A stretch of DNA of 4,496 bases from a virus (taxonomy: Duplodnaviria; Heunggongvirae; Uroviricota; Caudoviricetes), in IMG/VR virus record IMGVR_UViG_2740892234_000016; one strand, 5' to 3'. Below, piece by piece: positions 1,492-2,199 of this stretch. The notes below the pieces were generated by a model. That model had not been told where the DNA came from. It did not search any database and worked only from the letters and a program-made list of their open reading frames with translations. The first letter of the stretch is position 1. Each line of letters opens with the position of its first letter. The position numbers and the translations under genes were made by a program.

Positions 1492-1644
1492 AGCATCCTC
1501 ACGATAATATCCGGGTAGGCGCGATCACTTTCGTCTACTCCGTTACAAAGCGAGGCTGGGTATTTCCCGGCCTTTCTGTTATCAGAAATCCACTGAAAGC
1601 ACAGCGGCTGGCTGAGGCGATAAATAATAAACGGGGGCTGTATG
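1375..1644. repeat. Direct repeat copy B (exo 3' end + orf60a'), paired with 849-1119
   Basis: See copy A. Copy B is bounded on the left by the N gap and on the right by the ATG of the methyltransferase gene. Confidence 0.85.
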
Positions 1645-1649
1645 ACTGA
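1482..1649 (+). CDS. Second orf60a-like small protein (55 aa), diverged paralogue of 956-1144
   Basis: Hand translation gives [55 protein letters not shown]. It has the same frame relationship to the exo' fragment as orf60a has to exo. It is absent from the ORF track because it is under 60 aa. Its C-terminus differs from copy A because of a 1-nt indel near 1633. Confidence 0.55.
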
Positions 1650-2199
1650 TTTCACCGGAAGCAATACTCCTGCCGAACATCGCGACAGCTGGCGCACACC
1701 ACCAGAGATTTTTGCTGCGCTTAATGCAGAGTTCGTTTTTCAACTTGATGCTGCCGCCAGCGAAAAAAACCGACTATGTCGGCTTTTTATCTCACAGGAG
1801 CAGAACACATTAACCACTTCATGGCCTGAAGCAATGGGATATGCCTCTGGTTATGTCTGGTTGAATCCACCATACAGCAATATTTCCCCTTTTGTGAAAA
1901 AGGCAGCCACTGAAAACAAATTCAGTAGTGTGGGATGTGTAATGTTATTGCCTGCTGACACATCTGTCGGATGGTTTCATGAAGCGATACAAACCGCCAG
2001 TGAGGTCAGATTCATCACGGCAGGACGACTGGCATTTATTAACCCACTCACTGAGAAACCCGTCAGTGGAAATAATAAAGGCTCGATGCTCATTATCTGG
2101 CACCCATACCCCCGTACACACTGCCACTTTACGACCGTTGATCGTGGAGAGTTGATGGCGTTCGGCTCAAGGATTCTTGCCCGTCGGGAGGCTGCATGA
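1642..2199 (+). CDS. Phage Dam-type DNA N6-adenine methyltransferase (185 aa), orphan (no restriction enzyme partner in the window)
   Basis: It carries an NPPY motif (VWLNPPYSNISPF), the catalytic motif IV of amino-methyltransferases. The N-terminal region WRTPPEIFAALNAEFVFQLDAAAS is typical of the small phage-borne Dam-like family. It has a G-rich ribosome-binding site at 1633-1637 and its stop overlaps the next ATG. Confidence 0.82.
   Translation: MTDFTGSNTPAEHRDSWRTPPEIFAALNAEFVFQLDAAASEKNRLCRLFISQEQNTLTTSWPEAMGYASGYVWLNPPYSNISPFVKKAATENKFSSVGCVMLLPADTSVGWFHEAIQTASEVRFITAGRLAFINPLTEKPVSGNNKGSMLIIWHPYPRTHCHFTTVDRGELMAFGSRILARREAA

What the first reader, a model, noticed from the sequence alone, without database searches (positions are those of the whole stretch)
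1642..2199. Orphan phage Dam-type adenine methyltransferase in the exo-int accessory region
The gene has the NPPY catalytic motif and an N-terminus typical of small phage Dam-like enzymes, and there is no restriction endonuclease anywhere in the window. Orphan phage methyltransferases are generally understood to protect incoming phage DNA from host restriction or to alter host methylation. Its target site cannot be determined from sequence alone; GATC is a guess based on the family. It is start/stop coupled into the early recombination operon, so it would be made immediately after infection or induction.
Basis: partly seen in the sequence, partly recalled or inferred. Interest (0 to 1): 0.5.

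Follow-up and report, generated by a model that had tools for sequence, protein, structure and literature searches.

The report
Prophage orphan adenine DNA methyltransferase gene
This is an ordinary, already-annotated phage DNA adenine methyltransferase gene with no partner restriction enzyme, sitting in the early operon of a lambda-like E. coli prophage; it probably marks GATC sites on replicating phage DNA, but its target has never been measured.

Summary
ORF 1642-2199 (+, 185 aa) matches Pfam Dam PF05869 over its full length (E 2.3e-56) and NCBIfam TIGR01712 (165.6 bits, cut-off 97). It has NPPY at residues 75-78 and the family's conserved N-terminal block.

It overlaps the stop of orf60a by 8 nt, and its own stop overlaps the start of a 27-aa ORF (ATGA). 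No restriction enzyme is found in the window or in the whole 47-kb phage PhiR30_1, which encodes the identical protein.

The gene is 100% identical in nucleotides to a RefSeq gene annotated "phage N-6-adenine-methyltransferase". It is present in 244 of 5,426 complete E. coli genomes, in a lambdoid prophage at tRNA-Arg (integrase annotated intD).

GATC specificity is inferred, not shown. Identity is 49%, 44% and 37% to the VT2-Sakai, T1 and HP1 phage Dam enzymes. Those three are less alike among themselves (31-36%).

Bases 1-1364 and 1375-4496 match two prophages 3.4 Mb apart in one finished genome, joined across ten Ns. The two carry alternative genes, orf63 or dam, in exactly the same slot.

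Verdict: real, correctly interpreted, already known, low interest.

The parts
1642..2199 (+). dam: orphan phage N6-adenine DNA methyltransferase, 185 aa (coordinates include the stop codon)
   Evidence: PF05869 at E 2.3e-56, full length. TIGR01712 at 165.6 bits, above the cut-off of 97. 100% nucleotide identity to the RefSeq CDS WP_000129285.1 'phage N-6-adenine-methyltransferase'.
1747..1761 (+). DAAAS (residues 36-40), part of the motif-I-like LDAAAS segment after the first beta strand; presumed AdoMet-binding loop
   Evidence: L35, D36 and A39 are invariant across the four phage enzymes. D36, A38 and A39 are invariant in 52 homologues. It follows strand 33-36 in the model. The role in AdoMet binding is inferred.
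1864..1875 (+). NPPY catalytic motif IV (residues 75-78)
   Evidence: Invariant in both alignments. It follows strand 71-74 in the model.
1482..1649 (+). orf60a (DUF1317) of the dam-bearing prophage; its stop overlaps the dam start by 8 nt
   Evidence: PF07026 at E 1.7e-32. Junction sequence ...GGGGGCTGTATGACTGA.
2196..2279 (+). 27-aa hydrophobic micro-ORF (MTTTECIFLAAGFIFCVLMLADMGLVQ), ATGA-coupled to dam upstream and to the orf61-like gene downstream; a GGAGG lies 6 nt before its ATG
   Evidence: Sequence read directly. The peptide is 100% conserved in lambda, 933W and VT2-Sakai, and matches 175 phage records. It is not annotated in the RefSeq locus.
2276..2491 (+). orf61-like gene (71 aa)
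   Evidence: phrog_303 at E 4.7e-36. Annotated 'orf61' in PhiR30_1.
2512..2538 (+). Terminator-like hairpin plus T-run after the orf61-like gene
   Evidence: Consensus scan; a pattern match only.
1365..1374 (.). Run of 10 N: scaffold gap joining two unrelated prophage contigs
   Evidence: The two sides match loci 3.4 Mb apart in E. coli 2013C-3264.
1..1364 (+). Segment from a different lambdoid prophage: bet 3' end, exo (285-965), orf60a (956-1144), orf63/DUF1382 (1117-1308), and the first 20 codons of the same 27-aa ORF (1305-1364)
   Evidence: 99.9% to NZ_CP027544.1 1019826-1021189, but only 93.0% to the dam-bearing prophage of the same genome. Pfam hits.
1375..1491 (+). 3' end of the exo gene that really precedes dam
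   Evidence: Window 1375-4496 is 99.94% identical and colinear with L001 6849-9970.
2590..2808 (+). TraR/DksA zinc-finger gene (orf73-like)
   Evidence: PF01258 at E 2.7e-09. RefSeq annotation.
2856..3134 (+). DUF4222 gene
   Evidence: PF13973 at E 1.9e-19.
3333..4496 (+). Tyrosine integrase (annotated intD); in finished genomes it abuts a tRNA-Arg gene
   Evidence: PF00589 at E 5.2e-47. The RefSeq locus shows intD followed by tRNA-Arg and fimZ.

Best explanation
ORF 1642-2199 encodes a small, single-domain, AdoMet-dependent DNA N6-adenine methyltransferase of the phage 'mini-Dam' family (PF05869 / TIGR01712, the family of HP1, T1 and VT-2 Dam). It is an orphan: it has no cognate restriction enzyme. 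It sits in the exo-xis segment of the leftward (pL-type) operon of a lambdoid prophage integrated next to a tRNA-Arg gene, and it is translationally coupled to the genes on both sides. It should therefore be silent in the repressed lysogen and made as a delayed-early product after infection or induction, together with Gam/Bet/Exo. Its most likely target is GATC. Its most likely job is to top up adenine methylation on rapidly replicating phage DNA, which host Dam is reported to leave under-methylated. Progeny genomes would then leave the cell fully modified and resist enzymes that cut or nick unmethylated GATC. SHOWN: gene integrity, family membership, catalytic motif, fold class, orphan status, operon position and coupling geometry. 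INFERRED: enzymatic activity, GATC specificity, timing of expression and biological benefit.
For: Family membership and integrity:
- Full-length matches to PF05869 and TIGR01712.
- NPPY and 35 columns invariant with VT2-Sakai orf32, T1 gp20 and HP1 orf13, all three of which are PF05869.
- 42 invariant columns across 52 homologues at 66-84% identity, i.e. the protein is under purifying selection.

Fold:
- The AlphaFold model (mean pLDDT 79, pTM 0.77) is one Rossmann-type domain.

Orphan status:
- None of the window ORFs scanned has a nuclease-type restriction domain.
- None of the 69 annotated genes of phage PhiR30_1, which encodes the identical protein, is a restriction enzyme.
- The unannotated prophage proteins scanned have no restriction-enzyme domain.

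Operon context:
- In the finished genome the same-strand order is N-ral-cIII-kil-gam-bet-exo-orf60a-dam-orf61-traR-DUF4222-int.
- There are overlapping start/stop codons on both sides of dam, and no + strand promoter-like site in the window.
- exo-xis genes are described as transcribed early from pL (PMC8614690).

GATC:
- The window protein is closer to each of the three phage Dam enzymes (49, 44, 37%) than they are to each other (31-36%). A different target would therefore need a change on its own branch.
- VT-2, HP1 and T1 Dam are GATC enzymes by my recollection of Radlinska & Bujnicki 2001, Piekarowicz & Bujnicki 1999 and Auer & Schweiger 1984. The first two references are listed in PMC7556043. 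PMC6602927 lists M.EcoVT2 homologues with GATC.

Association with DNA modification:
- The Klebsiella orthologue (74% identity) is fused in frame to a C5-cytosine methyltransferase in the same genomic slot.
Against: - No activity or methylome data for this protein or any close relative (>80% identity) were found in the searchable literature.
- 49% identity is below a published threshold for transferring a motif.
- The enzyme has no recognisable target-recognition domain, so how it would read GATC is unknown.
- GATC in PhiR30_1 is mildly depleted (observed/expected 0.59). This neither supports nor excludes GATC as the target.
- Enteric hosts are already Dam+, so the benefit of extra GATC methylation is not self-evident.
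- The closest solved fold is an RNA cap methyltransferase.
Confidence: 0.72

Rival explanations
1. Same enzyme family, but with a different or relaxed target: a non-GATC motif, or adenines in many contexts. This would give the phage broader protection against restriction than Dam mimicry.
For: Identity to the phage Dam enzymes compared is only 37-49%, below the 80% rule used for motif transfer. The protein lacks a target-recognition domain. Phage-borne orphan adenine methyltransferases with almost no sequence specificity do exist (PMC3299994; PMC7556043). A GATC enzyme looks redundant in a Dam+ host.
Against: The known non-specific phage enzymes belong to other families. Hia5 has DPPY plus FxGxG, and phiP27 L24 is PF01555. 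All three PF05869 enzymes compared here are GATC enzymes by my recollection, and the window protein lies between them in sequence space. Non-catalytic residues in the predicted hairpin 126-150 (R129, F132, I133, T137, N144, K146) are invariant with those enzymes.
Confidence: 0.17
2. The methyltransferase mainly serves recombination or developmental control rather than anti-restriction. By fully methylating GATC it would blind MutH, so that Red-mediated heteroduplexes escape mismatch repair. Alternatively, it would alter the lysis-lysogeny decision, in the slot that the pro-lytic orf63 occupies in other phages.
For: dam lies directly downstream of the recombination module in E. coli (gam-bet-exo). 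Its Klebsiella orthologues lie downstream of RecT or ERF modules. The VT2-Sakai paralogue directly follows, and overlaps, the ninB-like gene. Dam overexpression combined with oligonucleotide recombineering gives allelic replacement nearly as efficient as in strains with mismatch repair disabled (PMC4770203). dam replaces orf63 exactly, from codon 2 to the last codon, and orf63 is described as pro-lytic.
Against: The linkage may only reflect the general position of accessory genes in the left operon. T1 and HP1 dam are not next to recombinases. There is no experimental link for any PF05869 enzyme. This reading also requires GATC specificity, so it does not exclude the main explanation.
Confidence: 0.08
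3. The gene is a non-functional passenger, or it acts on RNA rather than DNA.
For: The closest solved structure is the mRNA cap adenosine methyltransferase CAPAM. E. coli B strains carry only a 5'-truncated remnant of the gene. No activity data exist.
Confidence: 0.03

Closest known systems
M.EcoVT2Dam (VT2-Sakai orf32; the 933W/Phi24B nin-region Dam)
   Same: Same Pfam family PF05869. 49% identity over 175 aligned residues, with NPPY and the N-terminal block conserved. It is an orphan gene of a lambdoid E. coli prophage and is translationally coupled to its neighbours.
   Different: It lies in the rightward nin region, between the ninB-like and ninE-like genes, not in the exo-xis region. The window's left-hand allele type in those Stx phages carries orf63 where this phage carries dam. 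At 49% identity it is too distant for confident transfer of specificity.
Phage T1 Dam (gp20) and T1-like (Drexlerviridae) methyltransferases
   Same: PF05869 at E 1.7e-70. 44% identity and the same motifs.
   Different: It is from a virulent phage. It has a roughly 45-residue N-terminal extension and a 14-residue insertion.
Haemophilus phage HP1 Dam (orf13)
   Same: PF05869 at E 7.1e-75. A 173-aa orphan enzyme at the end of an early operon.
   Different: 37% identity. It is from a P2-like phage of another host genus.
E. coli Dam / T4 Dam / DpnM (PF02086, D12 class)
   Different: A different family: the window protein has no PF02086 hit. Only about 103-112 residues align, at 5-11% identity. The window protein is 185 aa and has no separate DNA-recognition domain. 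So it works like Dam but is not a member of the Dam family proper.
CAPAM/PCIF1 cap-specific adenosine methyltransferase domain
   Different: It is a eukaryotic RNA cap enzyme of about 480 residues in the crystallised chain, with 16% identity. The resemblance is of fold only.
Non-specific phage/prophage adenine methyltransferases (Hia5, phiP27 L24 / PhiOS31_p25 type)
   Same: They are orphan, phage-borne m6A enzymes thought to act against restriction.
   Different: Different families: Hia5 has DPPY plus FxGxG, and phiP27 L24 is PF01555.
Lambda orf63 (DUF1382), the usual occupant of the same slot
   Same: It occupies exactly the same position, between orf60a and the 27-aa ORF, with the same start and stop overlaps.
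   Different: It is an unrelated 63-aa protein (PF07131) with a reported pro-lytic role. It is far more common: the orf63-type segment covers at least 80% of the query in 3,150 of 5,426 genomes, against 244 for dam.

Membership tests
Phage N-6-adenine-methyltransferase (Pfam PF05869 'Dam'; NCBIfam TIGR01712) | Full-length match to the family profile above the curated cut-off | tested here: met
   PF05869: 190.5 bits against a cut-off of 28.1, profile positions 1-168 of 169. TIGR01712: 165.6 bits against a cut-off of 97.05.
Phage N-6-adenine-methyltransferase (Pfam PF05869 'Dam'; NCBIfam TIGR01712) | Catalytic (D/N)PPY motif after beta-strand 4 | tested here: met
   NPPY at residues 75-78, invariant in alignments A1 and A2. 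It follows strand 71-74 in the model.
Phage N-6-adenine-methyltransferase (Pfam PF05869 'Dam'; NCBIfam TIGR01712) | Conserved N-terminal block (SNTP...D.W.TP) and LDxxA motif-I-like segment placed before motif IV | tested here: met
   N8, T9, D15, W17, T19, P20, L35, D36 and A39 are invariant with the VT2, T1 and HP1 enzymes.
Phage N-6-adenine-methyltransferase (Pfam PF05869 'Dam'; NCBIfam TIGR01712) | Small single-domain enzyme without a separate target-recognition domain | tested here: met
   185 aa. The model is one alpha/beta domain. Structural matches cover only the catalytic domains of larger enzymes.
Phage N-6-adenine-methyltransferase (Pfam PF05869 'Dam'; NCBIfam TIGR01712) | Phage- or prophage-borne, without an adjacent restriction endonuclease | tested here: met
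   Lambdoid prophage context. The whole PhiR30_1 genome has no annotated restriction enzyme. The hypothetical proteins scanned have no restriction-enzyme domain.
Phage N-6-adenine-methyltransferase (Pfam PF05869 'Dam'; NCBIfam TIGR01712) | m6A formation on DNA at GATC | not testable with these tools
   Requires expression plus DpnI/MboI digestion or SMRT/nanopore methylation calling. There is only indirect bracketing by three GATC enzymes at 37-49% identity.
Canonical Dam (EcoDam/T4 Dam/DpnM; Pfam PF02086, D12 class) | Match to the PF02086 profile | tested here: not met
   [not shown]
Non-specific beta-class phage adenine methyltransferases (PF01555; Hia5 / phiP27 L24 type) | PF01555 match, or DPPY followed by FxGxG | tested here: not met
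   No PF01555 hit. phiP27 L24 is PF01555. The Hia5 motifs are described in PMC3299994. The window protein has NPPY preceded by LDAAAS.
Type II restriction-modification system | A cognate restriction endonuclease gene next to the methyltransferase | tested here: not met
   The neighbours are orf60a, a 27-aa ORF, orf61-like, TraR-like, DUF4222 and the integrase.

The most novel reading that the evidence does not exclude
The phage Dam is a functional accessory of the adjacent recombination module, not an anti-restriction device. Co-expressed with Gam/Bet/Exo, it would fully methylate GATC sites, deprive MutH of its strand signal, and so let recombinants between diverged lambdoid genomes escape mismatch repair. 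This would be a natural counterpart of the engineered 'Dam overexpression plus Beta' trick (PMC4770203). It might explain why dam orthologues follow Red, RecT or ERF modules in different genera, and why dam can take the place of the pro-lytic orf63.
Probability: 0.1. Interest if true: 0.5.

Novelty: already known. Interest (0 to 1): 0.14.

Why it matters
It matters little as a discovery. The gene is already named by NCBI's annotation pipeline in hundreds of E. coli genomes, and it belongs to a family defined more than twenty years ago.

Three minor points remain useful:
- **Untested target.** The methylation target of this enterobacterial subclade appears not to have been measured, so 'GATC' in annotations is an extrapolation from relatives at 49% identity or less.
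- **Gene-for-gene swap.** The locus is a clean example of exact replacement (orf63 versus dam) inside the otherwise conserved exo-xis block of lambdoid phages. That block is studied for its effect on Shiga-toxin prophage induction.
- **Assembly artefact.** The window shows how draft assemblies stitch different prophages together across shared modules, which can mislead context-based interpretation.

Tried and rejected
- **PDB sequence search.** It found no relative (best E 0.28, to an unrelated CutA protein). The family has no solved structure detectable by sequence.
- **Non-specific methyltransferases in this family?** I checked whether known ones belong here. Hia5/Nme1821/Hin1523 have DPPY plus FxGxG. 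phiP27 L24, a homologue of PhiOS31_p25, is PF01555. M.EcoGIX is a plasmid-borne single-strand-specific enzyme. None belongs to PF05869, so they give no direct support for relaxed specificity here.
- **The silent ST131 prophage enzyme.** M.EcoMIV of E. coli EC958 is not this gene; it is a PF02086 enzyme.
- **Tetranucleotide statistics.** In PhiR30_1, T1 and HP1, GATC observed/expected is 0.59, 0.78 and 0.63, similar to several other palindromes. This does not discriminate between targets.
- **Promoter scan.** It found no + strand promoter-like site, only three on the - strand, fewer than in shuffles. There is no evidence for an independent promoter.
- **Literature searches.** Searches for PF05869, T1/HP1/VT-2 Dam and the PhiR30 phage gave no data on this protein.
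- **Searches not run.** I did not run the 1.84-billion-protein representative search or a metagenome scan. Family membership was already unambiguous.

Full report
**1. The observation**

The window has an ATG-to-TGA ORF at exactly 1642-2199 on the + strand, encoding 185 aa.
- It matches Pfam PF05869 ('DNA N-6-adenine-methyltransferase (Dam)') at E 2.3e-56, over profile positions 1-168 of 169.
- It matches the NCBIfam equivalog TIGR01712 'phage N-6-adenine-methyltransferase' at 165.6 bits, against a cut-off of 97.
- It matches phrog_111 'DNA methyltransferase' at E 1.5e-77.
- NPPY is at residues 75-78 (nt 1864-1875), and an LDAAAS segment at residues 35-40.

I aligned it with three PF05869 phage enzymes: VT2-Sakai orf32, T1 gp20 and HP1 orf13 (one search confirms the family for all three). 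Thirty-five columns are invariant. They include the N-terminal block N8, T9, D15, W17, T19, P20 and the motif N75, P76, P77, Y78.

**2. Coupling and operon**

The dam ATG (1642) lies within the last codons of orf60a/DUF1317, which spans 1482-1649. The junction reads ATGACTGA, an 8-nt overlap. The dam TGA (2197-2199) overlaps the ATG at 2196 of a 27-aa hydrophobic ORF. That ORF has a GGAGG 6 nt upstream, and its own stop overlaps the ATG of an orf61-like gene at 2276.

In the finished genome of E. coli 2013C-3264 the same-strand gene order is N, ral, DUF2528, cIII, kil, gam, bet, exo, DUF1317, dam, orf61-like, TraR/DksA, DUF4222, an HTH remnant, and intD. A tRNA-Arg gene and fimZ follow. The scan found no + strand promoter-like site in the window, and a terminator-like hairpin only after the orf61-like gene, at 2512-2530.

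[quoted passage not shown] By analogy with lambda, expression should be delayed-early and dependent on N, and repressed in the lysogen. This is an inference from context, not a measurement.

**3. The window is chimeric**

There is a run of ten Ns at 1365-1374. Two direct repeats flank it: 852-1111 versus 1378-1637 (96%), and 1305-1364 versus 2196-2255 (98%).
- Bases 1375-4496 are 99.94% identical and colinear with the tRNA-Arg prophage of 2013C-3264. Bases 1-1119 match that same prophage at only 93.0%.
- Bases 1-1364 match a different place in the same genome at 99.9% (1,019,826-1,021,189). That place is about 3.4 Mb away and is annotated bet, exo, DUF1317, DUF1382.
- The best-matching finished genomes listed show the locus as a colinear 3,970-bp stretch, which is the window minus 526 bp.

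The window is therefore a scaffold that joins two prophages across shared modules. The exo, orf60a and orf63 genes at 1-1364 are not neighbours of dam. This does not affect the dam gene itself, but it does remove the apparent 'duplication'.

**4. Alternative genes in one slot**

The two prophage segments share sequence up to and including the start codon of the variable gene...AATAATAAACG(A)GGGGCTGTATG. They share sequence again from the ATGA that ends it: ATGACAACCAC.... Between those points one prophage carries orf63/DUF1382 (63 aa, 1117-1308) and the other carries dam.
- Stx phages such as VT2-Sakai and 933W carry the short form between the same flanks.
- In complete E. coli genomes the orf63-type segment covers at least 80% of the query in 3,150 of 5,426 genomes. 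The dam gene does so in 244.
- Among 187 phage records that share the flanks, only PhiR30_1 has dam.

**5. Orphan status**
- None of the window ORFs scanned has a nuclease-type restriction domain.
- PhiR30_1 is a 47.4-kb lambda-like phage with E. coli C given as host. It encodes the identical protein and has no annotated restriction enzyme among its 69 genes.
- The unannotated proteins in the cI-N gap and elsewhere gave DUF6932, an alpha/beta hydrolase, a small-molecule-type methyltransferase domain, or nothing.

**6. Fold**

An AlphaFold2 model built from 52 homologues has mean pLDDT 79 and pTM 0.77. It is a single alpha/beta domain, with low confidence at residues 1-7 and 41-45.
- Foldseek against the PDB puts the CAPAM/PCIF1 cap adenosine methyltransferase first (E 1.8e-4, TM 0.59).

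So this is an N6-adenine methyltransferase catalytic core with no extra target-recognition domain. No PDB entry is related by sequence.

Conserved non-catalytic residues lie in the loop at 40-70 (N43, L57, W61) and in the predicted hairpin at 126-150 (R129, F132, I133, T137, N144, K146). These are the obvious candidates for DNA reading, but that is inference.

**7. Target site**

I found no data on this protein.
- It is 49%, 44% and 37% identical to the VT2-Sakai, T1 and HP1 enzymes. Those three are only 31-36% identical to each other.
- By my recollection of the original papers, all three are GATC enzymes. PMC7556043 lists the VT-2 and HP1 papers in its references, and PMC6602927 tabulates GATC for M.EcoVT2 homologues.
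- Because the window protein lies between them, GATC is the parsimonious prediction.
- However, one published pipeline requires 80% identity and 80% coverage before transferring a motif. I therefore put GATC at roughly 0.65-0.75.
- The non-specific phage adenine methyltransferases I could check belong to other families.

**8. Likely role**

Only about half of the GATC sites in lambda DNA are reported to be methylated, presumably because host Dam cannot keep up before packaging (PMC3299994). A phage-encoded GATC methyltransferase made with the early genes would close that gap.

The orthologue in Klebsiella prophages (74% identity) is the C-terminal part of a single 637-aa ORF. Its N-terminal part is a C5-cytosine methyltransferase. 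It lies in the same slot, between a RecT or ERF recombination module and the TraR/DUF4222/HTH/integrase genes. An Enterobacter version keeps a remnant of the C5 domain. This pairing fits a DNA-modification (anti-restriction) cassette.

A more speculative reading is that full GATC methylation blinds MutH and so favours Red-mediated recombination. Engineered Dam overexpression does this in recombineering (PMC4770203). I give this low probability.

**9. Comparison and novelty**

The gene is 100% identical in nucleotides to a RefSeq CDS named 'phage N-6-adenine-methyltransferase' (WP_000129285.1). Its 90%-identity cluster has 537 member sequences, and relatives at 65-84% identity occur across Klebsiella, Enterobacter, Citrobacter and other enterics.
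- It is a member of the PF05869 family on every sequence and context criterion I could test. Only enzymatic activity and target could not be tested here.
- It is not a member of the canonical Dam family PF02086, although it probably does the same chemistry on the same site.
- It is not part of a restriction-modification system.

This is an already known kind of gene, correctly read by the first stage. Interest is low.

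Noticed in passing
window 1365-1374 with 1-1364 and 1375-4496: The window is a scaffold. The two sides of the N x10 gap match two different lambdoid prophages about 3.4 Mb apart in the finished genome of E. coli 2013C-3264, at 99.9% and 99.94%. The apparent 526-bp-offset duplication is an assembly join across shared phage modules, not a tandem repeat.
   Followed up: yes
window 2196-2279 (and truncated copy 1305-1364): An unannotated 27-aa hydrophobic ORF (MTTTECIFLAAGFIFCVLMLADMGLVQ), ATGA-coupled on both sides and preceded by GGAGG. 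The only difference between the two copies in the window is synonymous (ACT/ACG). The peptide is 100% conserved in lambda, 933W and VT2-Sakai, and matches 175 phage records. Ribosome profiling of lambda reportedly found extra peptide genes of 7 and 31 aa in this block. I could not tell whether this ORF is one of them.
   Followed up: partly
window 1117-1308 vs 1642-2199: orf63 (DUF1382) and dam are exact alternative occupants of one slot. Homology between the two prophages runs up to the ATG and resumes at the ATGA stop/start. The orf63 form is about 13 times more common in complete E. coli genomes.
   Followed up: yes
L009 3690-5603 (Klebsiella chromosome); L011/L012 5001-5855 (Enterobacter): In Klebsiella prophages the dam orthologue is the C-terminal domain of a single 637-aa ORF. 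The N-terminal two-thirds of that ORF is a C5-cytosine methyltransferase, so it looks like a bifunctional m5C/m6A fusion. The stored gene call covers only the last 200 aa. Enterobacter copies of 284 aa keep a PF00145 remnant fused to the Dam domain.
   Followed up: partly
L008 5003-5371 (E. coli B REL606; also BL21 derivatives): E. coli B strains keep only the 3' two-thirds of this dam gene (query 188-558, 98.7% identity). It abuts a truncated replication gene P in the prophage at the same tRNA-Arg site, and both are annotated as pseudogenes. This is a deletion scar showing that the B-strain remnant descends from a dam-bearing phage.
   Followed up: partly
window 3106-3477: An ORF whose first ~36 residues match an HTH_17 (excisionase-like) domain. 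It then runs on for 123 aa and overlaps the integrase start by 145 nt. RefSeq annotates only the first 66 nt as a truncated pseudogene. It is probably a decayed xis.
   Followed up: no
[not shown]
   Followed up: partly
L003 (PhiR30_1) 5577-6931; L001 1545-2578: The cI-to-N gap, which is the rexAB position in lambda, holds different two-gene cassettes of unknown function in the two dam-bearing phages. PhiR30_1 has DUF6932 plus a 310-aa protein with no Pfam hit. The 2013C-3264 prophage has 144-aa and 200-aa proteins with no significant hit. These may be defence morons.
   Followed up: no
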